Assembly: GCA_965178125.1 (NCBI GenBank)
Contig: OZ237768.1
Span: forward strand, 62,001-126,000
Length of the DNA stretch: 64,000 nucleotides
Direction: 5' to 3'
Origin: Bilabrum cf. latius
Taxonomy: Eukaryota
Shown here piece by piece: positions 3,233-63,037 of this stretch (position 1 is its first letter; each line of letters opens with the position of its first letter). The position numbers were made by a program, and so were the translations under genes. The notes under the pieces are model-generated. The model was given only the letters and a program-made list of their open reading frames with translations. It was not told the origin of the DNA and made no database searches.

Positions 3233-5845
3233 TCAACCAAACCCACCTTCGTCCTCGCCAGGAAGCCCATAGACCGGCGGGCGGCCATCATTGCCAACGA
3301 ATCTCTTCTGATATGCTTTACCAGCCCCCCTACTGGCTTTTCGCCGAGCAAGATGACGCTACCCTTCGCCATGACCCCCGCTTGCCCTGCGCTCTGCCCC
3401 GCCAGCGCCTTCAGAAACCAGGCCCCCGCTGGCCACTTCGGCCGCCGCCCCCAGCAGATTCCCCAGGAGATCCCTTCCCAGGCCAGCCTTCTCGTAGTGG
3501 TGCATCCCCACCCCGGTTGCAACGGCTGCAGCGCACTGCCGCACGCTCTCCCACGCCGCAGCCCGCCCCTCCCCCGAGCCCTCCGCCCACACGGCGCACA
3601 TCCCGGCTGCGCCCAGAGGGACAGGAGATGCAGCCAGCGCGCCGCCGGGCGCACCCTCCCCGCCTTGCAGTGCAGTGCAGCCCGCCGCCCACGGCCCCGC
3701 CACCTCCTGCAGCTCCGCTCGGCCCACTCCCCGGAGGGTGAGCAGCGAGCCGGCCGATGAGGGCGCATCGCCATATGCAGCACCCGCGTCACCTGCGTGC
3801 CTCGCCAGCTCCAGAGCGAACGTTCGTCGAGACAGCGAAGCCAGTGAATCCCCCTGGGAGGGATCCGCGGGAATAGACCGCAGCTCGCGCAGAGCCGCCA
3901 GCGAGGCGCCAGGGGCCGAGCCAGGGGCAGCTCCCAATCGAGCCAACGGGGCCTCGGGGGAGGTCGGGACTAGCGGAACCTCGCGCGCGGCGCCCCTCCC
4001 CGGATCCGCCCGCATGGCAGCGATGGCCCGTGGCAGTTTGCCCCCCTCCGCACCGGCGCTCCCCCCGTCCTCCAAGGTGCTCCCTCTGGCCTTCACGCCA
4101 GTGCACGGTAGCAGCACACCGCACAGACGGGCACAGGCCACCTCGTTCATCTGGGACAGGGTGACACCCCACCGCCGCGCCGAGAGCCCCTCGCCCCTAG
4201 GCCCCCCTGCCCCGCCCGCCCCCCCCCTCCTCCTCCTCGCCGCACTGGCCGCACCCGCGGAGGACTCGGCCGCCGCATCCGCCAGCTCGTCGTTCCGCAG
4301 CATCACAACTGCATCGGAGGCCAGGCAGGAGGCACCCAGGCTCAGTGCCGCGTTGGTGTGCTGCACCGCCGTCTCCCCACCATCCAGCGGCCACACGATC
4401 ACGCTCGCGATGGGCACGCTGGGGTAGGCAGCTCGCAGCGCCCCCGCCACCAGTGGGCCCATCCCTGACCCTGTGCCCCCGGCGGCGCTGTGGAGCACCA
4501 AAAAGCCGCCGCACCCGCCCCCCTCCGCTCCCGCTGCCCCTGCCCCTGCCCCTCCTGACCCTGCAGTGCCCTGCACCTTAAGCCACCCAGCCCGCCCTTC
4601 CTCCTCCTCGTCCTCCTAGCCCCTCTCCTGCAGCCCCGCAGCGACGCCCCCAGCCGCGCTGACCTCCCGCTCCACGCACTCCATCACCGCGGGGAGCAGT
4701 AGCGGTCCCACGGACAAGTGCCCCTGCGCCCAGTTATTCGAACACCCTAGCCAGCCACGCCCACGCCCACGCCCCCACCCCCGTCCGCGCCCGCTCCCCT
4801 CGCCCCCAGCACCCACCCCCGCCGCCTCAGCAATGGTAGGTGCACCTGCCCCGGTGCCGCCGGAGCTCGCCCCCCTGCCACCTGCGCCGCGAGTACCCCC
4901 CGCCGCGTGGGGCGCAAACCGCCAAGCCGGGCTGCTGCGCAACCTACGCGCGGCGCCGCTTGCCGCTCTTGTAGCGTACTCGATCGCCTGGCGGAGCCGC
5001 TGTTCTGCGGTCTGCTTGCGCCGATCCGCCGCCGATATTCGACCAGGGGCAGCGTAAGCGGCGGATTCCTGCAGCTGAGCACCGCCAGAACCGGAACCGG
5101 AACCAGGGCGTCTCTCTCCTGCCCCGCCTTTGGGCGCGCACCTGCTGCCCAACGACCCTCCTCGCCTGGACGCTCCACCAATTGTGTGTCCCGGCCGTGT
5201 ACTGGGCCCCCTTGCCATCCTACCCACGCTGCTCCTGTCAGTGCCCCTTCCACTCCGCCTTCCCCTGCCTCTGCCAGCACCTCGTTGTCGCGGCACAGAA
5301 GGTTTGCGACCACTGCGGTGCCCGCCTTCCTCGTGATGCCCGCCCCTCCTTCCAGAGGGTAGTCCTCTCGATACACCCGATGCTATCGGCTCACTGGGCT
5401 CCTCAACTTCCACCTCCTCTGGCCGCATGGCCTGTTCGGCCGCCTCGACGGCTGCCTGAGCAACCCTCCTTCGCACTACCACGCTCTGCCTGCGCTGCTC
5501 TTCGACCACTGAAGCAACCACTCTAGGTTCTGAATCTACTAGAATTGCACGCGCGAGCAGGTCTGGTGCGTTGTCGTTCGCTATCTCGCGCAGTTTCCTG
5601 GACAGTGCCTCTTGCTCTGCAGACAGCGGCTCATCGGGCTCACCCGGGCGCGGGGCCGGGGCCACCCATGGCCGCAGCCGCGCCCTCCGAAAGAAACGAT
5701 TCTCAGCCACAGCGGCAGATCGGGGACTCGAGTCTCTTGCCGCAGCAGCGCTGCGAGCAAGCGCGTTCAAAAGCTGGGTGCCAAGCTGGTTGCCGCATTG
5801 TCCAACCATTACTGTGATAACACATGTCGACGCTAGATCCGCCAT
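3233..5845 (-). CDS. TUBD1: Delta-tubulin with long low-complexity insertions (~870 aa when TAG is read as sense)
   Basis: Motifs VITVMVGQCGNQLG, ARAILVDSEPRV, NNWAQG, LHSAAGGTGSGMG, VWPLDGGETAVQHTN and C-terminal MHHYEKAG match delta-tubulin. ORFs 4616-5845 and 3359-4576 are in the same frame, joined through TAG at 4616-4618. A second TAG lies at 3359-3361 and the first TGA at 3233-3235. Confidence 0.88.
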
Positions 5846-6019
5846 GATTTCAAAACTAAACTTAGACCAGCAAACATAAAAAGCACATCATATTAGCGCC
5901 ACGATGCTGGATAGTTCGGCCCGAGTTGCAGTTGTCATTGTAGCGTGCATTCCAGTCTTGGCTGAACCGATTCTATGATTTGAGTCTTCGCGTGCTCCGC
6001 ACTAGCCCTCTTGGGCAGC

Positions 6020-9000
6020 ATGTCTGCTTCTGTTGGCGCCCACATAGATATTACTGTTGCTGCAATCAGACATGCCGAGCTTTCGGGGCCTTCCGGCCGG
6101 ACATCTAGGCGGATGGGGGTCCATCATGTGACAAGCGCTATCGAACGCCTGTCAAAAGCCCACAAGCTTTCCGATCGGGATGTTCAAGGAGCATTCAGCC
6201 TTGTGTTAGAATTATCAAACATGGTGGAACCAGACTGGTACGTAAAACTGGAAAAGTACCGCGCAAATCTGGTAAGTCAGGCTTTGGCATCGCCCGCAAA
6301 GGTTCGCATTGTAGTTGCAGCCGCCGCTACAATTCATGTGTATTGTATCTTGCCTTGGCTCTGCTTTTGCAGGTGCGCTCCCCCGAACGACTTCGCCACA
6401 GGGCTCGATCGATGACCCCACTTTCGCCTGCGCTTGGGGATGGTACGCCAGATTTGGCCCGCAGTAGCAAAGCAAAATCGCGACCAAGGTCTGCTAGAAA
6501 CCGCTATGATGACTCAAGCATAGCGTCTGAAGCTGGATCTGATTGGGGCGCACCGGAAGTCACTGAAGCCCACGATGTCGGGATGGATGCGCATTCGCGG
6601 CACCGAGCAAGTGCTCCATTCCGGGCGGGTCTTCCTCGCCCCGCCCTGCTCGAGTCAAATATCCCCGGCATGATGCTTGGGCTCCCGCCCGCCCCTCACG
6701 GCCCCAGCACTGTGGCGTCCTCTTCGCCCCGAGGCTCGCCCCACCGAGCCACGGCGCCTGCCTCGGCCCCCCGAGGCCAGCATCAGCTCGAGGGTCGTCA
6801 GCGAGGAAGTCGGAGTCACAGGGGCTGGACCCAGCGGCGCAAATCTAGCAGGTTGCAAGGGGATGAATCTCCTAGTGATTTGGGTTCTCAGGTTTCAGGT
6901 GCAGGCGAGGAGGAGTCAAAGGCAAGCACCAGCGGGGGGGGCAGCGGTGCAAGCGAGGAGGAGGGGTTGGGTGTGGGTGTGGGTGTGGGTGCGGGCGTGG
7001 GCGTGGGCGTGGGCGGCCCGGAGGTTGCGGTGAGTGGTGGTAGATTGGCCAGGAGCAGCAGCGGGAGACGAAGAAAGGAAGGCAGCAGGAGAGGCAGCAG
7101 TGGCAGGGCAGGGCGCTCCCAGAAGGCACGTCTCAGGCAGTACGGCAAGTCTGCTTCATCCACGGGGAAGTTGAGGGGCAGCACTGGCAGGGGCAGGATG
7201 CAAGGTATGGATGGCCTTAATGCGCAGGGGCGGCGTGGTTAGGGCAGGACAGGGCGCAATCGCCCTGATGCTGTGCAACAGAACGAGTCTAAGCGAATCG
7301 AGAGGCGAAGACGGACAGGGGGCAAGCGTGGCACCTCGACTGCTGGTCGTGCCGGTGCTGCCGGCTCGGTGGCGACCGGTGACCTGCTTCGAGAGATTGG
7401 TATGACGAGTGGGTCAGGTGCAGGCAGCAAGGCAGTCCACTCAGACGACAGCGCTGGCATCGAGCACGCGATGCGGCAGGGGCTGTCCCCGGGCCGCCTC
7501 GGGCTGGCAGTGACACCGGCTGGAAGCAGGCCCCAGTCCTCGCCTGGGTCCGCGGACGAGGGGGCGGGGCAACAGGCCGGTGATGGCAGTGCAAAACATG
7601 AGGATGACGAGCACAAGCGATACCCAGACAGGGCGTTCGGGTGGTTTTGCGACATGTCGCTGTGCTTCAGGTACTGGAGACACGCGGTGAGGGCTCGCAA
7701 GGTGCATCGACAGCGGGCTAGAGAGAGGCTGCAGCGGGCTTCGGAGCTAGCCAGGCAGTCGGAGAGGGCCAAACAGTTGCGGGCTGGGTTTGAGGCCTTG
7801 CGAGCGCAGGCGGGTGAATCGAAGATGCCGAGGGTGCCGCACCCCGGCTTGGTGCGAGCTGTGTGGAAATGGATCGCAGTGGCAGTGCCCGAGGGTGGGG
7901 TGAGACGCACTTAGCTTGGTCACTGGTACGGTCCAGGGGACAGCGAGAGGGCGGATGGTCGCGTTGGTGACACGAGTGATGACACCGACAGCCGGTCGAG
8001 AGATGCCGCAGCAGCGCAGCCCGACTGGCACGTACCCGCTGAGGCCCTGCAGCAGGACGAGAGAGAGACAGTGGTGCGCAGCATCGTGGACGGGGATCCT
8101 GTCGGCGATTCGATGGGCTGGAGCAGAGGTAGTAGCGGGGTGCAGGGCGTGCTGCACGGAAAAGATGGGAAGAGGGTGCGTGCAGGAGCTGCATCAGCCT
8201 CTGGGTCTTGGTCTGCATCCTCGACGCACAGCCCCCTTCGACTGGCCCGCATGGCCATGGGCCAACGACCACGGAATTCAAGCGGCGGCACCACACCAGG
8301 ACCGAATGCTGAACAGCCGCATGTCTAGGCAGAAAGCGCAACCTCGATGCGAGCAGATCCGGATGGGCTAGCTGGCGCCCAGCCCAGACGGCGGCTCTAC
8401 GTCCTGCGGCGAGTGCAGCCGCCTGCCTTCCCGCGCAGCCGTATGCGGCGGTTCGATGCGGCCACTTCTGTCGCAGACGCAGCTATCTTGCTGCAGGCTT
8501 GGCGAGCTCTGCGGGCATCTGCCCTGGAGAGGAGGCGCGAGGAGGACAGGGACCGCGCCAGGGAACAAGCTACCCTGCAGAAGGCCGCGCTGATGTTTCG
8601 CGCGATGGGCGCTGCACGGGCCATCCGCACCTGGCGCGCATTTGCAGCTCCCAGGGCCAGGGTGCGGCAGGTTCTGGACGTGGCTGTGTCTCGGCTGGGA
8701 GCCAGGAGGTTGCAAGGTGGCTGGGAGCGGCTGAGGTCGCACGCACTGGCGCGCAGGCACGAGCGGAGGTCCATGTCAGTCGCCTCTCGGTAGTGGCGAG
8801 ACCGTCGGCAGGAGGAGGCGCTTAGGGGTTGGCTAGCGTGGGCTTCTGGTAGGGCCAGGCTGCGAGCGATTCGGGATCAGGTGCGTACCCGGCGCGCGGT
8901 AGGTGGCATCCTTGGGGCTCTTGGGAGGTGGAGAAAGTGGGCCGGAGACAGGCGCAGGGTGAGGCAGGCTGCCCGTGCCTTCCGGTGGCGGACGGTCAGC

Positions 9001-12000
9001 GGGAAGTGCCAAGAGGCTGTGGACAGGCTGCGAGAGCACGCGGCCCGGAGGAGGTGGAGGCGAGCGGCCGGACGACGGGCAGCACATTTTGGAGGTAGGC
9101 TCGCCTTGCGGCTTGCGTTGGCTCGGTGGCAAGCAGGGAAAGGGGCCGTGCAAGCAGAACGACGCGCCCGCATGCAGCGCGTGGTGGGGGCACTGCTCCA
9201 CGGCCGGGTCCGGAGGGGGCTGGTGCGTTGGAGAGAGTTCCTGCAGCAGAGGCAGCGCGGACGTGCCATGCTGCGGCGGGCCATCGCGGTGATGCAGGGG
9301 CGACAGGTGGCAGGGGCAATCCACCAGTGGAGGGGACTCGTGTCAGCCCGGCAGACCGACCGAGCCAAGCTGTAGAGAGCGGTTCGTCAGATGCGGCACG
9401 GAAGTGTTGGTCGGGGGCTCCGGTCCTGGGTGGCGTGGATGCAGGCTAGGAAGCAGGCCCGTGAACGCATGCGATCCGTTGCTCGCCGGCTCTTTGGGCG
9501 CCAGCAGGCTCGAGCCATTGCGAGGTGGCGCGAGTTTGTGAGCGCTCGGCAGCATGCGCGGGAGTCTATGCAGCGAGTTGTGCGTCGGATGCAGGGAGCG
9601 AGGGCGGGCCGGGCGCTGCGGACCTGGGTGTCCTGGGTGGAGGATAGGCGCGAGGGCAGAGAGCGCATGAGGGGCTGCGTGCGGCGCATGCAGATGCAGA
9701 GACAGGCAGCCGCGGTGGAGTGCTGGCGGGAGTTCGTGGACAGGCGGCACGTGGTACGGGAGCAGATGCGGGGGGTCATCGCTCGGTTGACGCTTGCGGG
9801 GGCGGGGCGGGCGCTCCGCCGGTTGCAGGAGCACGCGAGGGAGCGAGCGGCAGGGAGGGAGCGTCTGCGAGGCTGCATCGTCGAGCTGAGGAGCAGCGGC
9901 GCGAGGCGTGCGCTGCGGACCTGGGTGTCGTGGATGAACGCACGGCAGCAGGTGCGGGAGCAAATGCGCGGCGTGGTGGTGCGCATGTAGTTCGGGGCGG
10001 CCGGTCGCGCGCTGCGGACCTGGGTGTCGTGGATGAACGCACGGCAGCAGGTGCGGGAGCAAATGCGCGGCGTGGTGCTGCGCATGCAGTTCGGGGCGGC
10101 CGGTCGCGCGCTGCGGACCTGGGTTGGGTGGGTGCAGGATAGGCGAAGTAGGGTGCAGCGCGTGCAGCACGTCATGCACAGGTGGGCGCGCATGGGGGAG
10201 GCCAGAGCCCTCCGGCAGTGGGTGCAGTGGGCAAGGGAGCGGGCGGAGCGGCGGGCCATCATGCGGGCGGTTGCAACCAGGTGGCAGGCAGGCAAGCTGG
10301 GCGCTGGCTGGCGGTCCCTGCGAGAGCATGCCCTCCGGAGAAGGGAGCAGCGAGCGCTCTTGCGGAGGTGCGCAGCTCGGTGGGCCCATCAGAGCGTGGG
10401 GCGTGCGCTGCGCAAGCTTAGGGACCGAGCGAGGGCCCGCAGGTCCATTCGAGAGACAGCGGCCAGGGCGGCTGCCGCCTCTGGATAGGTGCAGGTGCGG
10501 CGAGCGATCCGAGTTTGGAGGGAGGCGGCGGCACGGCTGGGGCAGCAGAAGCAGGAGCGGCGAGCCGCGATGCGGCGCGCGGCCGCAGTGTGGCACTCCA
10601 AGGAGCAAAAGCTGCGGGTGCAGTGCTTCGATGCCCTCAAATCGCACTGGGGAAGGGAGAGAGAGCGGACCGCTGACATCGAGGAGAGGGTGCAGGAGCA
10701 CGCGAGGCGCCGCTTGAAGAACCGCGTGCTCCCACGGTGGTCTGCCTTCGTGCAGCAGAAGTAGAGCATGAGGCGGGCCGTGCAGGCGTTTGCGCGCAGC
10801 TCGGAGCACAGGGCACTCGTCACATGGAGAGCCTTCACGCAGGGCCGACAGCGCCACCGTGCCACGATGCTGGGAGCCGTGAGGAGGTGGCAGTCATAGG
10901 GGCTGGCCCGTGCTGTGGCGCAGTGGCGGCAGCATGCGGCTGATTCCAAGGGCACAAGGACCCGCATGCAGGTGGTGGTGCGCCGGCTTAGGAGCAGCGC
11001 ATCTTTGAGAGCCCTCAACCAATGGCGGGCGTGGGCCGGGGAGCGGTCGGAGATCCGCACCAAGCTTCATAGGGCGGTCCGTGGGATGCAACACGCGAGC
11101 GTTGGTCGGGGACTCCGGTCCTGGGTGGCGTGGATGCAGGCAAGGAAGCAGGCCCGCTCCACCAGGGCCCAGCAGCTGGAGCAGATGAGGAAGGTGCTGC
11201 CCGTGTGGAACAGCAGGCGGCTAGCGTCCGCCTGGCGCTCCTGGCAGGCGCTTTTGGCGGAGGCAGAGCGCAGGAGACATGCCATGAGGCCGGTCATACT
11301 GCGACTAAAGGGCATGCGTACAGGCAGGGCGCTGAGGTCATGGCGCCAGTGGACGGCTGGGCGGCGGGACGCAAAGCATGTGATGCGGCGGGCGGTGCTG
11401 GCCATGCAGAACGTGGGCCTGTCGCGGGCGCTCCGGAGGCTGAGGGAACACGCAGGGGCCAGGCAGGAGGGCAAGGCGATGATGGAGGCAGTCCTGAGGC
11501 GATTGCGGGTGGGCAAAGCGGCTGCAGCCCTTCGCACGTGGCGAGCGTTTGCAAGCGGCCAGAGTAGCCGCAAAGAGGCAGGCAGGCGGGTGCTGGCGCG
11601 GTGGCGGCACCAGGGGCTGGCTCGAGCAGTGTCCAGCTGGCGCGGCTGGCTGGAAGAGCGCCAGCAGCAGCGCGCCACCATGCACCGCGTGCTGGCTGCA
11701 CTTCGGATGTCCAGTGTGAAGCGGGCCATCGGGAGCTGGAGGGCCATGGTGGTAGAGCGGAGGCGGCTGTCAGGGGCAGCAGAGCGGGTGGTTCTATCGA
11801 TGCGACGAGCAGGAGAGCTTCGGGCTGTCAGGTAGTGGCGCGGATGGGCGGCAGCACAGCGCGGAAGGCAGGCCATCGACGCGGCGGCGGACCAGCACTG
11901 GTGGCTATTCAAGGCCTCTGCCGCTCTGAGGCTGTGGAGAGATTGGTACATCACGCGGCAGCGTGGAAGAGCCGTGGTTGAGTACCTCGGTACTCGCAGG

Positions 12001-16293: not shown

Positions 16294-16763
16294 CAGCAGA
16301 GAATTTATCATATTGTTGAATACAGTGTTAAACTCTCTCTTGCACTACTCGGACGGGTCCTCTGGGGCAGGGCTTAGCCTAACTCATTCAACAACTGCCT
16401 ATATGGTCGGCGCCCATCACTCTGGAGGAGCCACTGCACCGAATTCAGGTCCTCGCAATCCATTCGCGAGCATGCTTGGGAGTAAAGGGTCGTAGTTGTG
16501 CTGCGCAGAGCGCAATACACTGCAAGTGACTCACAGCTCGGTATAGCCTATAGTATCCATCAAAAAAGGATATAATCATGAGCTCTCCTGGCAACTTGGC
16601 TGCGTTCGACATCGGGCACCTGCAGTAGACCCCGGGGCCTCGTTGATCTGGCGTACTTCCACTCGTGTATCGCCACCGCCGATCAAATGATATGGTATTG
16701 GGACAGCGCTGCATTCTCGCAGCTCTAGCTTGGCACCATTTTGCAAGTAGCCAAAGCTGAGCA

Positions 16764-49700: not shown

Positions 49701-51590
49701 GTCGTATATGCCGGCCACATCCAGGAGCAGGATGCCGGCCTCGGAGCTGAGCATGACCGACTCGGGCTACCCGTCGGCGCGGCGCAGGACGAAGCCGCGG
49801 TCGCGGTACTGCTCGCGCCACTGCATGGTCTGGAAGTCCGAGAGAGCGAGCGGTACATTAGGACCTGACGGGTCCCCATTCCAGTAGGAGAAGGTGATGC
49901 CACCGGGAGACACGTCCTGCCCACTCACAAAGAGCGGATTCCCTCGGTTGTGCCTCTGCAGGAAGCCCACCCCCCCGTTCTTGCCTCGCCCGGGTAGGAC
50001 GTCCACGATAGTGCCAGCACCCGTGCTTAGCGCGGGACCCCATGTGACGGTCCCGTCCGGCGCGATTATGATCCTCATTGCAACGTGCTCATGGACGGCA
50101 CTATACGTCTCGACCGTGGTGTGCACTGTCGTCGTCCCATCAAGAGACGTTTCAGAGACTAGCATGGACTACGGAGACAAAAACCTCTCCGCCGACTGGT
50201 CAGAGCTGTCAAAGTCATCCAGACCCTGCTGGGCCTCGGTTGCATTCCCGGACCAAAAGAAGATGTCCCTGTTTCCATTCGATCGCACCTGTTGGTCGTT
50301 GGCAGAGAACAGCACGCCTCGTCCGGGGACTCCTCGGACATTTTTGACCTTGTCATCCCGGGACAGCTGCTGGTTGACCATGAGGGGCGTGATGTTGCCG
50401 GTGTCCACGTCGAACTTGATCATCTTGGTTGCTCCGCGGTTCTGGCCGCTCCTCGCCGAAAGGTAGACGGCCCGCTGCTCCTCGACCACGGCCATGGTCT
50501 CCGTTAACATGCTGCTGGCCTGCGACCACGTCCACGTCTCGCTGGATAGCGCAGCTGTCTGCGTGTCGAGGTTGTAGCAGGTGAGCATGGCGCCCGAGCA
50601 CCAGAGGTACCCCTACGCAGATGGGCTCTGGGGTGTCTTGCCGAGCCAGCACAGGGTGGAGCTGTCGATCGCATGCGTGTATACGCCATTCAACTCGTTG
50701 CAGCTTTGGTGCGGCTTGATTCCGCCCGCCCCAGGGACACTCTCGTAAATCATGCTGGCGGTTGGGGGCATGGCTGATGCATCGGCAAAGTCGACACAGG
50801 CCATCTCAAAGCCGGCCGAGGCGTTCGCGACAGCTGCAAGGCAGATCCTTGTATCCCCCATCTTGACGGCAGAGTTCGCCTCAGACGTTCCGTGGACAAT
50901 GTACAGCTGGCTGCCTGCGGGCAGTCGACGGTCCCAGCAGTAGAGCCCCTGGTTTGCACGAGCGTTTCCTCCCCCGTAGCTCATGGTGGTGCATACGACG
51001 CCCAAGGTCTCGAGCTCTATCACGCCGTAGCTCTTGTCCACAGTCATCGACGGGCCGGTGGATGGACCGCCGGGCCAGTATCCCTCCCCAAAGGCGTTCG
51101 ACACCCCCAAGCAGCCGGAGCGAGAGCCGTTGCGGTCAGCCGCCCAGAAGCAGCCGCTGCGTCAAATATGGCATGGAAGGAATAAAAAAACATTTTCACT
51201 GCTGACTGCTTGCACTGCCATCGCTTCCTGATGCCATGTCTGGAGCACTTTTTGGTTTATTAGCGTCGGCGTGTGTGGCTACACGAGCGGCTCTTCTCTC
51301 ACCCACCAAAGGAGTTCTGCTGGCCGACGATAATGTCTCCTTGAGTAATGACGGAATCTACGTCTCCGGTAGTGAAGAAGCCCACACCACCTGAGCCAGG
51401 GACAATGTCGGCGACACGCTTCACCGTCGTCGCGCTGAAGTTTCCCGTGTACTCCACGGCAACGGGCTCCGGGCCTGCGAATAATGCAAGCGCAAGAGGA
51501 TTCAAGGTCTTGGATATTGTTGTGGTATGCGAGCATCTCCCCGCGCGATTCTCGAGTGTAGAGCAGCCTGGTAATGCCATGAACAACAGA
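46712..51590 (-). CDS. Putative type I membrane cell-surface protein, copy B; 5' end approximate
   Basis: Near-identical to copy A (+7189 to +7200 offset), with the same TAG positions, splice sites and TGA stop at 46712-46714. The stalk is 12 nt longer. Confidence 0.72.
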
Positions 51591-53878: not shown

Positions 53879-56614
53879 ATGCGATCTTTGGCTGCCGTCG
53901 CTTTAGGGTAGCTGCTGGCATGCTCTGCTGCTATTGCATCGATCCCGGGATTCCCACGGTACAGCGACTATGCTGGCTCAAAGTATCGAGTGGGTTACAC
54001 AAAGCGATCCATCACCTTGAACGACGAACCTGCCCTATTTGTCTCGGGTTCGTTGCATCCTCCGCGGATCGAGCCTGCCGATTGGAATACAGCCTTTGAT
54101 CAGATCCTCGAGTCCGGTGGTAACATGGTGAGAACGGGTTCGCCTACCGTCGTCGCAAGGCCAAACAGAATCGTGCAATGATGTGCAAGGCTGCTTCCTG
54201 TGTGTCGGTATGAATGTATCGCAGGTTCAGCCATACGGTGAGTGTTGCACTCGGTGCCATGATGGCTATTTCTAGCTCCAGTCGGATCAGTTGCACTTGG
54301 CGCCACTGGCAGCAACCTCGCCTGTCACGACTGCTAGGCAACGTTGAACATGCAGCATCGCTTTTGATGACCTTCTTGTTGTATTTGCAGTCTTCTGGAA
54401 CTTCCACCAGCCGACCGAAGAGGAGTGGATCTGGGAGGGGAGAGCCAACCTCACTGCCTTCATCGAGGCTGCCGCCAACAAGGGCCTCTTCGGTGAGCAG
54501 CGTGGTCTGTCTTGTGTCAGTGCGTCCGTATGCGACTTAGGGGGCATGCTGTCCAACTCATCTCTACTTTCTCCCTTTTTGACTGGCACGCTATCCAGCG
54601 CATCCTCATCTCTACCTCTCCCTTATACCTGATCAAGTGCCCAGTGGTCCTGCGCGGCGGCCCCTATGTGTGCGCCGAATGGAGTTCGGGCGCAGTGCCG
54701 GTATGGCTGAACGGCAAGCCGGGCATCTCGTACCGCACCGAGAACGCCGTCTGGCAGCACTACATGCAGCAGTTTTTCGACCGGATCATCAAGGCCGTGG
54801 GCGAGGCCAAGCAGTTCGCCGCGCAGGGCGGGCCCGTGGTCATCGTCCAGGTCGAGAACGAGCTGCACGGCGCGCCCGACTCGTACGTGCAGTGGTGCGG
54901 AGACATGGCTCACGAGGCCGTGCAGCCGTATGACCCGGACGCCGTGATTATCATGTGCAACGGGCAGAGCGCCAACAACACGGTCAACACGTGCAACGGC
55001 AAGTCGTGCACGGGTTTCATCGAGGAGAACGGGCAGAACCACCGCATCCTGGTGGACCAGCCCCCGCTGTGGACCGAGGCAGAGGGTGGCTTTCAGGTGT
55101 GGGGGGGCAGCCCCTCTGACCCGACCTCGTACTTTTGGGGGCAGCCCGCCGCGCAGGAAGCCTTCAACATGGCCCAGTGGTTCGCGAGAGGAGGCTCCCA
55201 CGCCAACTACTACATGTTCTCCGGGGGCTCCAACCCCTCCCGGTTCGCTGGGGCTGGCATCACCCAGTACTACGCGATCGACGGGCCCGTCTGCAGCGAC
55301 CTGCTCCCCCACGAGCCCAAGTATTCGCACCTTACGGGCCTGCATCGCGCCGTGGAGTACTACGCCCCGCACATCGCCTACTCGGACGCGCAGGTGAAGA
55401 ACAAGGTGCCGGTGGAGTACTTTGACACGAGCAACAGTTCATGGGCCACGGGCACCCAGCAGTACGCCTTCGTGTACCAGTCCAGCGAGGGCACCAAGCA
55501 AGGGGTGCCCGCGGTGGCCTTTGTCGAGTCTGTGGCGAGCATCCCTCTGCGCGTCCGGTGGAGGCAGCACGAGTTTGACATGGGCCCGAATTCAGTGGCG
55601 GTGGTGGACGAGCAGGAGGGCATCCAGTGGCTCTCCAGCGCGGTGACTGCCCCTGCCGTGCACCGCGTGTACGACCCGATCGCGGACCTGGGCGCGACGG
55701 GGCTGCGGGCCGGCAACTCGCTGGACTGGAGCAGCTGGGGCGAGCCCATCACTGCGGCAGAGGCCAAGCAGGGTCCTCCCAGCAAGAGTGCCGCCTCCCC
55801 CATCGAGCAGGGCAACTTCACGAGCGGTGTCACCGAGTACATGTGGTACGAGACGGCCATGCCCTCGGGGGGCATCAAGAAAGGGGACCAGCTGTCCATC
55901 GCATCCAGGACGGCCAACTCCATGCTGCTGTTCGCTGACGACCAGTACCTGGGGGAGGCAAACGACCACTCTCACCACGACGACGACAAGGAGCTCACCA
56001 TCACCGCGAGTGCCGACGCCACCTCGGCCCAGCGGCTGTCCCTCCTCTCCGCCACGCTGGGCTACTCGAACGACATGGGCAGCGGCAGCGGCCCCAAGAC
56101 CAAGGGCATCATCGGGGCCGTGAAGCTGGGGAACAACGAGGTGCAGGGGCCGTGGACCATGCGGGGCGACCTGACGGGCAACTTCCTGGAGATCGCCTCA
56201 GCCGCTGGCAAGAGCAAGGTCAGCTGGACCAAGGGGCCGGCCACCGGCGCCGCGCAGCGGCTGACGTGGCTGCAGGCCGAGTTCGTGCTGCCCCGCGCAT
56301 TGGGTGAGGGCGAGCGGCTGCACTTCAACGCGACGGGGCTGGGCCGGGGCCACCTGTTCCTCAACGGCAACGACGTGGGCCGGTACTGGACGATCTTGCG
56401 GAACGACGGCTCCGGGCAGTTCACGCAGACCATGTACCACCTGCCCACGGCACAGCTTAATCCCGCGGGGCAGAGCAACGTGATCACCGTGGCAGAGGTG
56501 CTGGGGGCCACTGCGGTGGAGCAGCCGGGGCTGTTTGTGGCCAGCATGCAGCCGGGGTCGGGCGAGGAGCCGAGCAAGGGCTGGGGGCAGGAGATCAACT
56601 CGTGCAAGATGTGA
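53879..56614 (+). CDS. Secreted glycoside hydrolase family 35 beta-galactosidase, ~777 aa; exons 53879-54127, 54225-54237, 54391-54492, 54645-56614
   Basis: The spliced product gives GH35 motifs FVSGSLHPPR, GGNMVQPYVFWNFHQP, GLFVVLRGGPYVCAEW, QVENE (acid/base), LWTE (nucleophile), NYYMFSGGSN, YMWY and GRGHLFLNGNDVGRYW. The N-terminus is signal-peptide-like (MRSLAAVALG*LLACSAAIA). Donors are GTGAG and acceptors CAG. Stop is TGA. Confidence 0.92.
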
Positions 56615-56938: not shown

Positions 56939-59900
56939 TTAGTATCTGGGGAACGCGAACGGTGATGGGCAGATCGCGATTGATGCTGCCTGCACCGTCA
57001 ATGTTTCAGGTCGCCGCCACCACGCACGTCGGCGTGATAGAGTGGCCATGAATTCGTCTCTGAGTTGTGAGGTGGCATGTGCTGCCGAGGCGAGCCGAAC
57101 TGTCCATGCCTTATCGAGTCGGCGTTCTAGGCGTCTGAGCACCTTGCGCTAGGTAGAGCCGGAGGACCACGATCCAATGCTTGTCTCCACCCCGGGTATC
57201 TGGCAGGAGATAGCCAGCGGTAAGGGTATTCCCAGGGAGAGTGCCTTGCGGCGAACAGTCGGAGACTCCTCGAGGAAGGCTTGTACAGCTGCAATCTGCG
57301 GGCAAGTAGTGTCCAGCTCCGGATTCCTTGCGAGGAAGTGTCGAATGAGACGTTTCAGAGACCACGTACTGCGGCGATCCACCTCACTCAGCTTCTCCCG
57401 GATTGTGGGTTCATTCGCGAGCCATGGGTCCGTGCTTGTCACACTGTTGATCCACGTTTTCCTGCCTGCCTCAGTGGCCTGCCATGGAATTGTTGAAGCG
57501 CTGTGCAGGGACTCTGCTTGCGTCATGCATTCCAGGACGTGTTCCTTGGTCTTGTCCGAGGCACTGCAGGCCCTAGGGTAGTATCCTGTCAGTCTTCGGA
57601 GGAGACGACGAGAATCGGCTCCCGGCAGTCCCGTACGTACCGTTCGTGGGATGCACTTCGGTCCAAACCACTGTGCATGGGAGACTCCAAGTAGGTCGCA
57701 TAGTCCCGCACGCCTTCCACCTGGGTGTTTATCGAAGAGCCTTGCGTACTTTTCAGCATGCGAGCTTGTCTCGTGCATTTTCGGGCACTATCTGTCCAGA
57801 CTGCGATGGTGCAGCACGGCCTTGAAGCTCTCGGTATGGACCGCTCGGTCTGTCTTGGTGGTTGTCCTTAGATTGAGCACCTACAGGGCATTGCCATGTG
57901 TCTGCACGAGGATGGCTGCCATGTTTCTGAGGGGCCCACATGGAAGGTTGGTCCCCTAGATTTCGTTCGTTTCCATCAGCTTCCACAGTGAGTATCTAAT
58001 GAGGTCGAAGGAGTCCTCACTGATCCGGTCCACTGCTGCCCGGTATGTAGCGAGATCCGCTCTTGTCAGGGCGCTCGGTGCCCAGATGAGGTGTCGGAGC
58101 ATGGTGGCCCCAAGGAACATGGTGTCCACACGTTGTGGGCGTTCACAGCCCATGCCGGAGGCAATGGCATGGCGGGCGGTGTCCAGAGTTTTCTGAATCC
58201 TGCTGATAGCCTTGCTGTTGTACCTTGGCTTGTAGTTGTGTGAGCCGTCCTTCTTCGTACCAGTTTGCTAGTCCTTGTAAGATTCTGGTCTTCGCACCTC
58301 GGGGGGGTCCGTGCACGCGGCCACCGCGTGGATGCCGTCTAGGGCAGTTCCCACTACTGCTTGGAAGAGGATGGTGGAGAACTGCTCGATGCTCCAGTCG
58401 CTGTTGATTGCAGCATTGGATATTCTCTTGATGCTGGTCTCAGCCATCGCGCAGCGCCTATGCACGTGCGGCATGAGGTCAAGCAGCCGCAGTGTCTCTT
58501 GGGATCCATCGGTATGGTTCACTTCCACCGGCTTGGTAGAGATGAGGACGCCTAGGTAGTCGTATGAGAGCACCATCGGGATCTCTTCGAAGACGGGCGT
58601 GAGTTGGGCTGGGTTCAGGCCTTTCGCATTCAGTTCTTCCAGTGCCTGCTTCTGGTCCTCGATGGAGATAGCAGTCGCTCCCGAGCGGACTTGGTCCTCC
58701 GTGAGTCCGAATGAGTTGAATGCTCTACCTGTGGCAAGGATGGCCGTCTTGCTTCCCTTGCCGTTCTTGGGCTTTCGATACCCGAGCTTTCCCCCGGACA
58801 GTTCGTGATTGAGTTGTGCGGCGACCGTAGCGATAGCAGCGCCTCGCTTGTCTTGCACAATGGCTCTTTCATCATCTGCGTAGGACACCAAGGTATCTTC
58901 CGCATTGTTCGGGGGTGGTGCTCCTGATACCAGTGGCGGGATGTCCACGTCCGCCTTGTCAATGGAGATCGAGATCATCAGGGTCGCTGGATGGTTGGCT
59001 ACGGTGAACAGTAGTGGGCTAACTGGTCCACCCTGTAGTACACCGCTCGTGCGGTCAAACGGTCCTGATTTGGCGCCGCTAGGCCGGTGGAAGACGCGGA
59101 CCTCTGCCCTCATTCTACTAAGGACAGCTTCACTCTGAGCCGCGCTGACGCCGAGCTTCTTCAGCGTTAGCCGGATGATGCTCCAGTGGACTCGGTCAAA
59201 TGCACCCTTTAGGTCGATGAACAGAATGATGAGTCCTTCCAAGCCGGCTTCTGCAATCCTGGCGATAGTATCCTCTACGGCCTGGTATCTGTCACGTCGA
59301 GGAAGGAACCCACATTGGGTAGCCCCGCTGTTGCCAAAACGGATGGCGTGGTCAGGAAGCTTCTGCTGGATGATGTTTCCAAGCACCTTCATGAGTGCTG
59401 CCATGTACATGATTGGTCTGTAGTCATCCATGCACATCGGGTCGTCGTCGTGCTTGCCTTTGTATGCTACTGCCATGAAGGCTTGTCGCATGGAAGCAGG
59501 ATATCCGCCCGTCGCCATGGCTGCTACGTGCAGGGCCTTGATGGCTGCAAGCAATGCTGGTGAAGCTACCTTGTGGCCCCTTTCTTTTCGGCAGGCCCCC
59601 CTCAGCAGGTCGATCGGGATGTTGTCCGGACCAGTTGCTCGGTTCGGCTTTGCCTTCATGAGTGCACGCTAGACGTCGGCGATGTCAATCTGTGCCAGGT
59701 CGATGCCGTCTGCTTGGTGTACATGAGTCAGAAGGTGCGCTTGCACTGCCTGCAGGTCAATCTCGACGCTGTCAAGCTTTTCTGAGAATCTCTCCTTGAA
59801 TGCTTCCACGATCTCCTCTGGAGTGGTTGCCGTGTCCCCTTCTGTCGTTGTGACAGCGTGGAGCTTCGATGCAGCCTGGCGCCTACCCTGTGCGTTCTCG

Positions 59901-62900
59901 ATTTGGGATCGCACTACTTGGTGGGCTTGCCACGGTTGGCAGTTCTTCAAGGCGTTCTGGAGGCTGGATCCATCCAGGCGTACTCCTTCCGCTGATATCG
60001 TCAGGACCTCGCTGGAATCCAGTTCAATATCCTTGACAATTCTGCGGAGGACTTTCGCATTGACGATGCGATGCGGCTGTCCCGCCTCGTAGTCGAGTAC
60101 TGCTGTCCTACGCATCAACCTGCGGCTACCTTTGTTTGCTTGAGGACAGTGCAATCGCCTAGCAGACCGGCGGGCTGCCGAAAGTGCTCGTGCGATGCTG
60201 TTGCAAAGGGCGTTGCTGCCTTCTCTGGCAGATTGGCGTAGGGCACGTAGTCGGGCTCTAGCTCTCACTCCTTTGCCACCGAGGATTTTCAGCAGCTAGA
60301 GGCAGAGCGACTTCAATGCCCATACTCTTTTCAGGGACACCCTCTCCGATATAGCTCTCCTTCTCTTGGTCATTGAGCTGCGCATTCCTCTTCGCTGGAA
60401 GTCGTGGGTCCGTTTGCTCCCAGCTTTCTTGAGGGCCTTGAGGGCGGTGTCGCCGATGTGATCGACCAATTCTTCCATGACCCCATGGATATGGTCTCGA
60501 TCCGCCCTCTTGCGCACCAGTCGGTTCAGGGCCGCTGATATTCTCGGTAGATCTGATCGCTCGAAGCATGTGTACACGACTGCTTCCGCTGCTTCACGTT
60601 TTCGTGGGTGGCTTGGCAACCGGTAGGTCTCCGATTTCTGGCGGATGCCAGTAGCTGTCACTTGGTCGCCCTTCCTCGCCGAGACTTGCACGATCTAGGC
60701 TTGGTGGTCGTTCCAGTTCTCAGTGGCTCGTCCTGGGTCACGATTGGTGCGTGTGGTCGAGTCGCGATGAAAGCTGCCTAGCAGGATACCGTCCAGGCAC
60801 CCGCCTTTTGCGTGCGTGGGTAGAGTGTCAGTGGCCAGGGAGAACATGCAGTGGTCCTGGGGGGTCTTCGGCAGCTCCTCCGGGATGGCTTGGATGTCCT
60901 GTGGTCTGTTGAAGTCTCCCAGCACAATGAGCTTCGTCATGTCAAACGAGTGCAAGTAGTGCCCCTCCGGCGCAGTTGCACTCGCCTGCTACATGTTGCA
61001 GATCATGTGGGTGAAGGTGTCTCGCTCCGCATTGCCAGGCAGCGGGTTGTAGACTGCCAGCAGGTGGGCCGCTGTTACACCATGCATCTAGATATCCACC
61101 AGGAAGCAGTCACTGGGGTGGTCGAGTCCCGTGTCTGTTCCGTTGCGCGGTTTCAGTTCCAGTCCCTCCGTCGTCTGGTCTGCTGCGATCACCATGCCGT
61201 GTCCGCCAGTGGCGGTTTTTCCCTTACTGTAGCCTGAGACCCTGCCATTCGGCGATGCAAATGGTTCGAACTCCTGGGTATCGTCAGCTTGGTCACGGCC
61301 AGATTCGGTGAGTACCATTACGTGGCTGTAGTCCATGTCTGCCCACGCTTTGTGGATGTCTTGTACGTTGGATCTGCGGCCTACATTGAGGTGGCCAATC
61401 CGTAGTAACGTCTACTTAGCGTCTACTGTTCTCCCGATGACCTCCCTGGAGGCGTAGATTCGGTCGATATCGATTTCGACTTGTTCCACTGCTTCTGATC
61501 GGGGTACTTGGAGTTTCACGTACAGGTCCAGCTAATGTGCTTTCATGAGCAGGCCTGGGTCTGCTGTCGCGGACTTACCGGCCAGCGTGTCTTTGACTGG
61601 GCTGGTCAGAAGGAAGTCAAGGATGTCCTTATCTAGACGCCAGTCCAAGATTGGGGGAGGCGATGGACCTCCCGCTCCAGAGGCTGGGCCGTTCTCCGAT
61701 TGAATGAGTTCCAGTTCTGACTGCAGCTGATCTGGTGAGGGCTCCTTGTGGAAAGCAATCACCAGGTGCACTCCATGGTCCAGTTTGATGCCAGCATCCA
61801 GCTACTGCGGGTCAATCCTGCCCATCAGGATCTTGGGGACGCTTCCCTGTGCCTTGACCATACTTGCGAGATCTCCTTCCGGAGGTATCGTTGCGCAGGG
61901 CTGCATTGGCACACTGTCCGTCTCGATGTATGGGCATCCGGTAAGCGAGGCCCCAGATGGCATGAGTGATATGCACGAGGCATGCTGGTCCGAGATCATC
62001 ACCACATGTCTCGGTGCTGCACCCCTAGCCTGGGCGATCCTTGCTACCAACTCCGAGCTCGTGCGGATCTACTTAGGCGCAATGATGTACGCTCTGGCGT
62101 GTGTATCCTCACAGCATCTGGAAATCGATCTCGCGCCTGTCAGCATCTGGGCCACACTTGCTCTGCCGCTCGAGTCTGGGTCTCGACGCATCAGGATATT
62201 GATGTGTTCTTTCGTGAGGCATCCACCGACGCACATGCTCATGGCGCGGGTAGCACACGATTCTGAGTCGCTGCTGGAGTTTGGCAGTCTCAGCTTGGCG
62301 ATCGTGCCGTCCGGGCTTTTGCAGTGGATCGTTGAGCCGTCTTCACAGTGAATCGCACAGAAACCATTCTTCGATTCGTCGAATGTCTGTAGCAGATCTT
62401 CCGCGTCGGTGTGCATGCAGTGGAGCTTGATGCCTTGGCCCATGTACTTCGACAGCGATGATGCGAGTTTGGCTTTGAGGCGAGAAGGCTCAAAGACCAT
62501 CGATCTTGCGGAGTATGGCTGGTATGGAGCCACCCCTGCTGCGTAATCCACCGAAGTTACGATCACTCGTGCATTCCAGGCTTCCTGGTAGATTGGTAGT
62601 GATGGTCTCGGGGCTGTCTCCGGGTCTGCTGCAGTTGCCACGAGTTGAGCCTCCTCTTCAGGTCCAGATACCTTTAGACGCATTCTAGCGGGCAGGTACT
62701 ATCGGACAATGCAGGTTGGTTCCCCCGTCGTGGTGATTTCCGTGATAGGTAGATTCGTCGCCGTGGCTGCAGACTGGAGTAAAGAGCTGTTGCCTCGGAG
62801 CGGGGCCCAGTTCTCCCACTCCATCTCTCCCATGGCAGAGAGTTCCTCTTCGCCCTCTTCGCGTAGGTACGTTGCAAACCTTCTGATTCTCTGGTACTTC

Positions 62901-63037
62901 TCCGAGAGTTCCGTGGTCCTTTCCGAGTCTGCAGCTGTTGCTGCTCCGGGTGGGACCTGGGGTGGCTCTCTGGTTAGGAGTGAGTCGATCTGCATGATTT
63001 CCTCAGTCGAGGGTTTCGGGCGGGACGTCGCGTACAT
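56939..63037 (-). mobile_element. Non-LTR retrotransposon, single ~2032-aa ORF: unknown N-terminal region, AP endonuclease, reverse transcriptase, C-terminal region (element ends not defined)
   Basis: Twelve ORF-track fragments from 63037 to 56939 share one frame, joined by 15 TAGs, ending at TAA 56939-56941. APE motifs: LRIGHLNV, VMVLTES, LLAVYNP, LIVLGDFN, CLDGILL, NDH. RT motifs: ATGPDNIP, DYRPI, QCGF, FIDLKGAFDRV, GVLQGGPVSPLLF, SYADD, YDYLGV. Confidence 0.93.

What the first reader, a model, noticed from the sequence alone, without database searches (positions are those of the whole stretch)
3233..63037. Non-standard nuclear genetic code: TAG is a sense codon throughout the window
Seen in sequence: the 9.9-kb frame 6373-16293 contains 27 TAG and no internal TAA/TGA. 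The 12.2-kb frame 27067-39297 has 11 TAG and the 6.1-kb retroelement frame has 15. Delta-tubulin, the LRR paralogues, both surface-protein copies, the 152-aa gene and the GH35 signal peptide are likewise broken only by TAG, with no frameshifts. Pseudogene decay would produce all three stops plus indels. Established: most nuclear reassignments change UAA and UAG together, and UAG-only reassignment is rare (reported in the fornicate Iotanema spirale, a rhizarian and a few ciliates). Inference: this GC-rich, intron-containing flagellate genome may represent a further independent case.
Basis: partly seen in the sequence, partly recalled or inferred. Interest (0 to 1): 0.96.

Follow-up and report, generated by a model that had tools for sequence, protein, structure and literature searches.

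The report
TAG read as glutamine, not stop
This GC-rich eukaryotic genome uses TAG as an ordinary codon, most likely for glutamine, and ends its genes only at TAA or TGA, a rare kind of genetic-code change that makes standard gene prediction cut its proteins short.

Summary
In nine long frames (15,496 codons) there are 77 in-frame TAG, 0 TAA and 0 TGA. The other two frames of the same DNA predict about 33 TAA and 243 TGA. All 11 terminal stops are TGA (6) or TAA (5).

A second study's contigs reproduce the TAGs. They carry the spliced form of a 101-nt GT..AG intron and keep 21 of 27 TAGs in the 9.9-kb gene.

A metagenome contig, L001 (52% GC), holds a related retroelement. Its frame has 1,507 codons with 16 TAG and 0 TAA/TGA.

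Three analyses point to glutamine:
- Substitution scores at TAG columns of the retroelement give Q 46, E 38, L -77.
- Column log-odds in a 33-aa repeat give Q +2.3, E -13, L -15.
- Of 12 standard-code ORF fragments in public databases, 8 end exactly where the window or L001 has Q.

Not tested: tRNA(CUA), eRF1, whether TAG ever terminates, and the organism's lineage, because no genome is held.

UAG-only reassignment to Gln is a known kind (Iotanema, Protocruzia, some phyllopharyngean ciliates). This looks like a further member, in an unusually GC-rich, intron- and retroelement-bearing genome.

The parts
6373..16293 (+). Second exon and main ORF of a giant gene (3,306 codons). It holds a 33-aa repeat array and a weak EF-hand pair. 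27 in-frame TAG; terminator TGA.
   Evidence: Contig pieces of run X5 cover 21 of the 27 TAGs with no other letter at those sites.
6272..6372 (+). Spliceosomal intron of 101 nt (GTAAGT...TTTTGCAG) just upstream of the giant ORF.
   Evidence: The joint 6270->6372 GT..AG (cut +1) is seen in contigs of X5 and X6 only. The DNA contigs of X1 and X3 run through it. Sequence read.
27067..39297 (+). ORF of 4,076 codons for a low-complexity protein with no Pfam family. 11 in-frame TAG; terminator TAA.
   Evidence: GC by codon position is 0.73/0.58/0.77. The TAG at codon 3663 is CAG in the duplicated copy at 45095-46486.
56939..63037 (-). Non-LTR retroelement ORF (2,032 codons) with an RVT_1 domain. 15 in-frame TAG; terminator TAA.
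   Evidence: Pfam RVT_1 E 6.6e-14. Relatives were found in metagenomes. The near-identical fragment P0110 has Q at 3 of the window's TAG sites.
3233..5845 (-). Tubulin-family gene (870 codons) with long low-complexity insertions. 2 in-frame TAG; terminator TGA.
   Evidence: Pfam Tubulin E 4.3e-24; PDB alignment. P0264, 79% identical and from another assembly, ends just before the window's Q495.
17443..20802 (-). Paralogue 1 of an orphan, LRR-like gene. 8 in-frame TAG; terminator TAA.
   Evidence: It is 96.0% identical in DNA to paralogue 2. Four TAGs are shared; the other four face TTG, TTG, TCG and CAG.
22045..25398 (-). Paralogue 2 of the orphan, LRR-like gene. 4 in-frame TAG; terminator TGA.
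40494..43910 (-). Orphan 'surface' protein gene, copy 1 (1,138 codons). 5 in-frame TAG; terminator TGA.
   Evidence: It is 99.4% identical to copy 2, and all 5 TAGs are shared.
47694..51110 (-). Orphan 'surface' protein gene, copy 2. 5 in-frame TAG; terminator TGA.
53879..56614 (+). GH35 beta-galactosidase gene with at least three exons (about 53879-54130, 54375-54491, 54644-56614). One TAG in the signal peptide and none in the 700-codon last frame. The terminator TGA is supported by homology.
   Evidence: Pfam GH35 E 3.6e-36. tblastn segments with P0003 and P0005 give the exons, and the C-terminus ...NSCKM aligns to the homologues' ends. Signal peptide; stop codon.
45095..46486 (+). Duplicated copy of the 3' end of the 12.2-kb gene. 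It has CAG where the parent has TAG. Terminator TAA.

Best explanation
The nuclear genome in this window uses a variant genetic code. UAG is an ordinary sense codon, most probably glutamine, at about 5 per 1,000 codons and about 11% of Gln codons. UAA and UGA remain the only terminators seen.

Shown here:
- TAG sits in frame in expressed, spliced genes and in conserved families.
- TAA and TGA never do.
- TAG columns and the ends of standard-code ORF fragments coincide with Gln in relatives.
- At least one environmental relative shares the trait.

Inferred from established knowledge of such codes (passages of PMC5304391):
- A tRNA with anticodon CUA decodes UAG. It probably derives from tRNA-Gln(CUG) by one anticodon change. 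It pairs with UAG but not UAA.
- eRF1 recognises UAG poorly or is outcompeted there.
For: 1. Frame statistics. Nine frames hold 77 TAG, 0 TAA and 0 TGA in 15,496 codons, against about 33 TAA and 243 TGA expected from the off-frames. All 11 terminal stops are TGA (6) or TAA (5). They include the GH35 stop, which is confirmed by alignment of the C-terminus to homologues.

2. Independent data. Contigs of runs X5 and X6 (study P2) carry the spliced form of the 101-nt GT..AG intron, which the DNA contigs of X1 and X3 lack. They match the window across 21 of 27 TAGs of the 9.9-kb gene. The only other letters read there are at 14174 and 14250, neither a TAG site.

3. An environmental relative. The retroelement frame of L001 (52% GC) has 1,507 codons with 16 TAG and 0 TAA/TGA. 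The chance of no TAA/TGA at its off-frame rate is 6e-21. The adjacent DUF455 gene has 3 TAG and 0 other stops in 264 codons.

4. Meaning of TAG.
- BLOSUM62 sums over 42 reliable TAG-residue pairs in the retroelement alignment: Q 46, E 38, K 14, R 2, L -77.
- Log-odds over 7 TAG sites in 28 stacked 33-aa repeat units: Q +2.3, R +1.8, S +1.1, E -13.2, L -15.0.
- Of 12 database ORF fragments aligned to their last residue, the next position is Q in the window or L001 for 8, against a Q background of 3-4%. These include the conserved Q before GF in the RT domain (P0114) and columns where partners of 37-54% identity keep Q (P0113, P0268). For one further fragment, P0110, the only reference it reaches has TAG itself at that position. 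Four of the other fragments (P0115, P0117, P0108, P0257) also face TAG in one of the two references.
- The 94%-identical copy P0110 has Q at 3 of 3 window TAG sites that it spans.
Against: - With only divergent partners (34 pairs), E scores slightly above Q: 28 against 25.
- The window tubulin's TAG at codon 410 aligns with E in a poly-E run of P0264.
- Two of the four TAG codons unique to LRR-like paralogue 1 face TTG (Leu) in paralogue 2.
- The GH35 TAG lies in the hydrophobic core of the signal peptide, where Leu would fit better.
- TAG<->CAG is a transition, so matches between close copies partly reflect mutation rather than meaning.
- The stop codons of the database fragments could not be seen, except for L001's own. 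Some ends may be contig ends.
- The library type of X5 and X6 is not on record. The tool labels X5 'RNA? (probably DNA)'.
- No tRNA (0 in the window), no eRF1 and no proteomic evidence.
- All assignment evidence comes from one retroelement family, one repeat protein and a few fragments, not from a panel of conserved genes.
Confidence: 0.8

Rival explanations
1. TAG is a sense codon but codes for another amino acid. Glutamate is the strongest alternative, followed by Leu, Ser or Arg.
For: - E outranks Q when only divergent partners are used (28 against 25).
- TAG aligns with E in P0264's poly-E run.
- TAG faces TTG twice and TCG once between the LRR-like paralogues.
- One TAG lies in a signal-peptide hydrophobic core.
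- R (+1.8) and S (+1.1) score close to Q in the repeat test.
- UAG=Glu, Leu and Ser codes all exist in other eukaryotes (passages of PMC11687900).
Against: No alternative does well in more than one test.
- E and L score -13 and -15 in the repeat test.
- R scores 2, S -4 and L -77 in the retroelement test.
- None of the 12 fragment ends faces E, L, S or R, while 8 face Q.
Confidence: 0.1
2. TAG is ambiguous. It is read as an amino acid inside genes but also terminates some genes, depending on context, as in the ambiguous ciliate codes.
For: - Several frames have a TAG shortly before the final TGA or TAA. In the 9.9-kb frame it is 20 codons before the end. In the LRR-like genes it is 17-18 codons before the end, as a tandem TAG-TAG in paralogue 1.
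- Only one C-terminus in the window, GH35, is fixed by homology.
Against: - The one homology-fixed terminator is TGA.
- No gene in the window needs TAG as its end.
- TAA and TGA are strictly excluded from coding frames, so dedicated stops exist.
Confidence: 0.08
3. The TAGs are not translated as such. They would be assembly or base-calling artefacts, removed by RNA editing or splicing, or the frames would be decaying pseudogenes or chance open frames in GC-rich DNA.
For: - GC-rich DNA gives long chance ORFs. Many overlapping ORFs appear on both strands.
- The LRR-like paralogues evolve almost neutrally, with 63 non-synonymous against 27 synonymous codon differences.
Against: - Decay or chance would give TGA and TAA as well. 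There are 0 in 15,496 codons against about 276 expected.
- The same letters stand in contigs of two studies.
- Contigs of the runs that show the spliced intron run unbroken across 21 TAGs, with no C read there.
- A metagenome contig from elsewhere, with a different GC content, shows the same pattern.
- Pfam families are intact across the frames.
Confidence: 0.02

Closest known systems
UAG-only reassignment to glutamine with UAA/UGA kept as stops: the fornicate Iotanema spirale, the ciliate Protocruzia tuzeti and two phyllopharyngean ciliate lineages (passages of PMC5304391, and PMC11687900). A paper abstract seen in the listing (PMC9523058) calls TAG=Gln 'genetic code 15'.
   Same: In-frame UAG only, UAA and UGA as terminators, and Gln as the best-supported meaning.
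   Different: This genome is very GC-rich (57-71% in 4-kb windows), has canonical GT..AG introns and non-LTR retroelements, and has relatives in metagenomes. Its lineage is unknown. tRNA-Gln(CUA) and eRF1 could not be inspected.
Rhizarian exLh (UAG=Leu) and the phyllopharyngean UAG=Leu lineage (PMC5304391, PMC11687900, passages).
   Same: UAG alone is reassigned, and UAA and UGA are kept as stops.
   Different: Leu is rejected here: -77 in the retroelement test, -15 in the repeat test, and 0 of 12 fragment ends.
Green alga Scotinosphaera (UAG=Ser, UAA stop) and the ciliate PL0344 (UAA=Lys, UAG=Glu), as summarised in passages of PMC11687900.
   Same: [quoted passage not shown]
   Different: Ser and Glu each fail one of the two tests here. 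UAA is a stop here. GH35's best named relatives are not green algae.
Classical UAR=Gln codes: many ciliates, Hexamita, Streblomastix, ulvophycean algae and Amoeboaphelidium (passage of PMC11687900).
   Same: A stop is reassigned to Gln, presumably through a mutated tRNA-Gln.
   Different: TAA is never in frame here (0 of 15,496 codons) and ends 5 of 11 frames.

Membership tests
UAG->Gln nuclear code with UAA/UGA stops (Iotanema / Protocruzia / phyllopharyngean type) | In-frame UAG in protein-coding genes, including genes of conserved families | tested here: met
   77 TAG in nine frames. These include a tubulin-family gene, an RVT_1 retroelement and the GH35 signal peptide.
UAG->Gln nuclear code with UAA/UGA stops (Iotanema / Protocruzia / phyllopharyngean type) | UAA and UGA are absent from coding frames and used as terminators | tested here: met
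   0 TAA and 0 TGA in 15,496 codons. Terminal stops are TGA 6 and TAA 5. The GH35 terminator TGA is fixed by homology.
UAG->Gln nuclear code with UAA/UGA stops (Iotanema / Protocruzia / phyllopharyngean type) | UAG positions correspond to Gln in homologues | tested here: met
   Q ranks first in both column tests, and 8 of 12 fragment ends face Q. The data set is small, E is close in one sub-test, and no panel of conserved genes was available.
UAG->Gln nuclear code with UAA/UGA stops (Iotanema / Protocruzia / phyllopharyngean type) | UAG is present in mature mRNA, neither spliced out nor edited | tested here: inconclusive
   X5 and X6 contigs show the spliced intron, and 21 of 27 TAGs are unchanged. 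However, the runs' library type is not on record, and contigs drop rare variants.
UAG->Gln nuclear code with UAA/UGA stops (Iotanema / Protocruzia / phyllopharyngean type) | A tRNA-Gln with anticodon CUA | not testable with these tools
   There are 0 tRNA genes in the window and 0 Rfam matches. No whole genome is held.
UAG->Gln nuclear code with UAA/UGA stops (Iotanema / Protocruzia / phyllopharyngean type) | eRF1 or termination is adapted so that UAG is not read as stop, and UAG never ends genes | not testable with these tools
   No eRF1 gene lies in the window and no genome is held. Only one homology-fixed C-terminus is available (GH35, TGA).
UAR->Gln code (NCBI table 6 type) | UAA is also a sense codon | tested here: not met
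   TAA appears 0 times in frame and ends 5 of 11 frames.
UAG->Leu code (rhizarian exLh type) | UAG aligns with conserved Leu | tested here: not met
   L scores -77 and -15.0, and 0 of 12 fragment ends face L. The only hints for Leu are two TAG/TTG pairs between paralogues and one TAG in a signal-peptide core.
Codes with all three stops reassigned or ambiguous (Blastocrithidia, Condylostoma, Amoebophrya type) | In-frame UGA and/or UAA | tested here: not met
   0 TGA and 0 TAA in 15,496 codons.

The most novel reading that the evidence does not exclude
This may be an unreported, independent origin of the UAG-only to Gln code in a non-ciliate, non-fornicate eukaryote clade. The clade would include environmental relatives of quite different GC content (52% against about 63%). 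The window genome is GC-rich, so UAG ought to have been a common terminator before the change. That runs against the codon-capture route, in which AT pressure first makes a stop codon rare.
Probability: 0.4. Interest if true: 0.88.

Novelty: new member of a known kind. Interest (0 to 1): 0.78.

Why it matters
- Rarity. Nuclear codes in which UAG and UAA differ are rare. The passages read list a handful outside ciliates: Iotanema, one rhizarian and Scotinosphaera. Another case, with genome-scale DNA, introns and retroelements, would add a data point on how UAG escapes eRF1 while UAA does not.
- Theory. A GC-rich example tests whether low stop-codon usage is needed before a stop is reassigned.
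- Annotation. Standard-code gene calling truncates this organism's proteins. The public protein databases already hold such truncated fragments from its relatives. The assembly and related metagenome bins should therefore be re-annotated with TAG=Gln.

Tried and rejected
- Whole genome: none is held, so tRNA(CUA), eRF1, 18S and a genome-wide terminator census were impossible.
- Window scans: ARAGORN found 0 tRNAs and Rfam found 0 matches.
- The look-up of sequencing runs listed no holder on record as RNA. X5 and X6 are 'RNA?' guesses.
- Listed X5 pieces did not cover the two tubulin TAGs or 6 of the 27 TAGs of the 9.9-kb gene.
- Taxonomic placement failed.
  - GH35's best named hits are scattered: Pelomyxa 40%, Symbiodinium 38%, a diatom 34%, plants 28-30%.
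  - The tubulin search returned a single unnamed hit.
  - L001's DUF455 gene is closest to unnamed sequences and alphaproteobacteria, with Phytophthora at 44%.
  - All close relatives are unnamed metagenome or Logan proteins.
- The TAG column of DUF455 is variable (R, N, A, Q, G, E, T...) and says nothing.
- The tubulin site where P0264 ends is Q in the window but E in beta-tubulin, so it does not separate Q from E.
- Further loci:
  - Alignment A2 was too divergent for the metagenome scan.
  - A3 gave one locus in metagenome contigs and none in genome contigs or viral contigs.
  - GH35 gave none in genome contigs.
This was not pursued, so the orphan proteins remain unannotated.
- Pfam found nothing in ten further ORFs.
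- Literature: three full-text searches found no report of a GC-rich non-ciliate UAG=Gln organism. This does not show that none exists.
- Pyrrolysine was considered and set aside. TAG faces Gln in relatives and occurs about 5 times per 1,000 codons. No Pyl machinery could be searched for.
Full report
**Observation**

Listing ORFs under the standard code and then with TAG read through turns fragmented frames into very long ones.

| Frame | Strand | In-frame TAG | Terminator |
|---|---|---|---|
| 6373-16293 | + | 27 | TGA |
| 27067-39297 | + | 11 | TAA |
| 56939-63037 (retroelement) | - | 15 | TAA |
| 3233-5845 (tubulin family) | - | 2 | TGA |
| 17443-20802 (LRR-like 1) | - | 8 | TAA |
| 22045-25398 (LRR-like 2) | - | 4 | TGA |
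| 40494-43910 (surface 1) | - | 5 | TGA |
| 47694-51110 (surface 2) | - | 5 | TGA |

As a control I counted the three stop triplets in all three forward frames of nine such genes.
- The coding frames hold 77 TAG, 0 TAA and 0 TGA in 15,496 codons.
- The two off-frames of the same DNA hold 66 TAA, 215 TAG and 486 TGA in 30,974 codons.
- At off-frame rates the coding frames would carry about 33 TAA and 243 TGA.

TGA is the commonest stop triplet in this 57-71% GC sequence. Its complete absence beside 77 TAG cannot come from chance or from pseudogene decay.

GC by codon position shows a coding signature in most of these frames: 0.60/0.48/0.89 in GH35 and 0.73/0.58/0.77 in the 12.2-kb frame.

**What the genes are**

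- Pfam finds Tubulin (E 4e-24), RVT_1 (E 7e-14), GH35 with its galactose-binding domains (E 4e-36) and a weak EF-hand pair.
- The two giant proteins, the LRR-like pair and the 'surface' pair match no family.
- The tubulin aligns to beta and gamma tubulins only over its conserved blocks, with long low-complexity insertions between them. I did not verify that it is delta-tubulin.
- GH35 is split by introns. tblastn with two homologues gives exons at about 53945-54130, 54375-54491 and 54644-56614. The C-terminus ...NSCKM aligns with the homologues' ends and is followed by TGA.
- The GH35 signal peptide carries one TAG.

**Independent sequence data**

No whole genome is held. Six public runs from two studies hold the 9.9-kb gene. 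I laid four of them on window 1-17400.
- The contigs of X1 and X3 (study P1) are collinear with the window.
- The contigs of X5 and X6 (study P2) show a joint 6270->6372 with GT..AG ends that the P1 contigs lack. The sequence there reads GTAAGT...TTTTGCAG. This is a 101-nt spliceosomal intron, and these runs contain cDNA-like molecules.
- The listed X5 pieces cover 21 of the 27 TAGs of the 9.9-kb frame. X6 pieces cover 5.
- The only other letters reported in the X5 and X6 contigs are G>A at 14174, G>T at 14250 and one missing base at 10418. None is at a TAG.

So the TAGs are reproduced by a second study, and they are neither spliced out nor edited in the assembled majority.

Three caveats apply. 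The library type of X5 and X6 is not on record, and the tool labels X5 'RNA? (probably DNA)'. Contigs hide rare variants. The two tubulin TAGs were not covered.

**Relatives elsewhere**

An exhaustive profile-free search with 1,181 residues of the retroelement ORF found 5,540 proteins at E<=0.001. A few are close and short: 95%, 94% and 87% identical over 79, 334 and 67 residues, and 47-58% identical over 110-575 residues. All are unnamed ENA, JGI or Logan proteins.

One of their contigs could be fetched, as L001 (5,295 bp, 52% GC).
- Its retroelement frame is 59% identical to the window's.
- It runs 1,507 codons with 16 TAG and no TAA or TGA. The off-frames hold 30 TAA and 63 TGA. The probability of none is 6e-21.
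- On the other strand, a DUF455 host gene (Pfam E 7e-56) has 3 TAG and no other stop in 264 codons.

The trait is therefore shared by at least one other organism with a different base composition. This also argues against a platform-specific artefact.

**Which amino acid**

There are three lines of evidence.

(a) I aligned the window's retroelement ORF, L001's ORF and eleven fragments. I left out P0107, P0257, P0259, P0260 and P0115 as copies of L001's own element, and P0233 as a cluster-mate of P0262.
- I collected every residue facing a TAG where at least 3 of the 12 flanking positions were identical. This gave 42 pairs.
- BLOSUM62 sums are Q 46, E 38, K 14, R 2, S -4 and L -77.
- With the near-identical partners removed (34 pairs), E 28 slightly exceeds Q 25.

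(b) The 9.9-kb protein contains a 33-residue repeat.
- I stacked 28 units at exact 33-residue spacing and scored 7 TAG sites against the column compositions.
- Log-odds are Q +2.3, R +1.8, S +1.1, E -13.2 and L -15.0.
- Q is the only residue that ranks first or near first in both (a) and (b).

(c) The public protein fragments were called with the standard code, so they end at stops. For the 12 fragments whose alignment reaches their last residue (at most 1 residue unaligned), I read the next position in the window or L001. Six further rows were set aside. P0262, P0233, P0199, P0112 and P0232 have 2 or more unaligned tail residues. P0001 ends at the true GH35 C-terminus.

| Fragment | Gene | Next position in reference |
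|---|---|---|
| P0109 | retroelement | Q (window) |
| P0114 | retroelement | Q (window and L001; the Q before GF in the RT domain) |
| P0115 | retroelement | Q (window); TAG verified in L001 |
| P0113 | retroelement | Q (window and L001; partner only 37% identical) |
| P0117 | retroelement | TAG (window); Q (L001) |
| P0264 | tubulin | Q (window) |
| P0268 | DUF455 | Q (L001) |
| P0265 | DUF455 | Q (L001) |
| P0110 | retroelement | TAG (window) |
| P0108 | retroelement | D (window) |
| P0257 | retroelement | K (window); TAG in its own contig L001 |
| P0124 | retroelement | H (window) / K (L001) |

That is 8 of 12 facing Q, where Q makes up 3-4% of these proteins.

In addition, P0110 has Q at all 3 window TAGs it spans. 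Duplicated segments inside the window also show TAG facing CAG.

**Evidence pointing the other way**
- E is ahead in the divergent-only sub-test.
- TAG faces E in a poly-E run of the 79%-identical tubulin fragment P0264.
- TAG faces TTG twice and TCG once between the LRR-like paralogues, which differ by 63 non-synonymous and 27 synonymous codons.
- One TAG lies in a signal-peptide hydrophobic core.
- TAG<->CAG is a transition, so close-copy matches partly reflect mutation.
- The fragments' stop codons could not be seen, apart from L001's.

I put Gln at about 85% given that TAG is sense, Glu at under 10%, and the rest lower.

**Mechanism**

Shown:
- TAG is decoded efficiently enough for ORFs with up to 27 TAGs.
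- It makes up 77 of 712 putative Gln codons, beside CAG 511 and CAA 124.
- It is rare in the most codon-biased gene, GH35, which has 0 TAG in 700 codons at GC3 0.89.
- TAA and TGA terminate.

Inferred from the literature passages read (PMC5304391): only a tRNA with anticodon CUA can read UAG while ignoring UAA. For Gln this is one anticodon change from tRNA-Gln(CUG). eRF1 must spare UAG. None of this could be examined, because the window has no tRNA gene and no genome is held.

Whether TAG also terminates some genes stays open. Several frames have a TAG 17-20 codons before their final stop.

**Comparison with known cases, and novelty**

Passages of PMC11687900 and PMC5304391 list the nuclear cases in which UAG differs from UAA:
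- a rhizarian (Leu);
- Iotanema spirale (Gln);
- Scotinosphaera (Ser);
- a ciliate with UAA=Lys and UAG=Glu;
- Protocruzia and phyllopharyngean lineages (Gln twice, Leu once).

The present code has the Iotanema/Protocruzia pattern. It fails the defining features of the UAR=Gln codes, the UAG=Leu codes and the codes with all three stops reassigned (see the membership table). It is therefore a known kind.

What is unusual is the setting: a very GC-rich genome with canonical introns, non-LTR retroelements and segmental duplications, and with relatives in metagenomes.

I could not place the organism. GH35, the tubulin and DUF455 gave no coherent taxonomic signal. Three full-text searches found no report of such an organism. 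So 'independent origin' and 'unreported' remain possible but unshown.

**Verdict**

- The finding is real and its core interpretation is right.
- Confidence that TAG is sense: about 0.97.
- Confidence in the whole statement (Gln, with UAA/UGA as the only stops): about 0.8.
- Novelty: a new member of a known kind.
- Interest: high for specialists in genetic-code evolution, and practically relevant for annotating this assembly.

Noticed in passing
window 1-3015: A tandem satellite of 82-bp units, about 37 copies at 97-98% identity, open in all three frames of the minus strand. Both DNA runs have depth over parts of it (X3 in every bin, X1 in all but one). Run X5 has none over 1-2900 and X6 only over 1-1160.
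   Followed up: partly
window 37900-43910, 45095-51110, 52220-53764: A segmental triplication. The 3' end of the 12.2-kb gene, its downstream region and the 'surface' gene recur. The gene-end copies are 96% identical and the surface genes 99.4% identical, with 15 synonymous and 5 non-synonymous codon differences.
   Followed up: partly
window 17443-20802 vs 22045-25398: The two LRR-like paralogues are 96% identical but differ by 63 non-synonymous and 27 synonymous codons. They also contain a stretch (about codons 405-445) that reads like a compensated frameshift between the copies. Paralogue 1 has four extra TAGs and may be under relaxed selection.
   Followed up: no
window about 8600-12000 (protein residues 749-1850 of frame 6373-16293): An array of at least 28 units of a 33-residue Arg/Ala/Trp-rich repeat (consensus like RALRxWxxW...R...MRR.V.RM...) at exact 33-residue spacing. 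No Pfam family matches it.
   Followed up: partly
window RT codon 781 and L001 (alignment column 781): The window's retroelement and L001's, 59% identical, share a TAG at the same column just after the NDH motif of the endonuclease-like part (WNDHQAXIV against WNDHMAXHV). A TAG kept at this divergence is unexplained.
   Followed up: no
window 6961-7540: Run X3 shows a depth spike (13,767 against about 17 in the bins on either side) with many rearranged joints. It lies over the (GV)n-coding microsatellite, so this is a genome-wide simple repeat.
   Followed up: no
L001 2-793 (-): A DUF455 ferritin-like host gene lies beside the retroelement in the environmental relative. Its closest named homologues are alphaproteobacterial (45-50%) and a Phytophthora protein (44%). 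Two related unnamed fragments, P0265 and P0268, end where L001 has Q.
   Followed up: partly
window 53879-56614: GH35 has very strong codon bias (GC3 0.89) and no TAG in its 700-codon last exon frame, against about 5 per 1,000 codons elsewhere. This hints that TAG is avoided in highly biased genes, but it rests on one gene.
   Followed up: no
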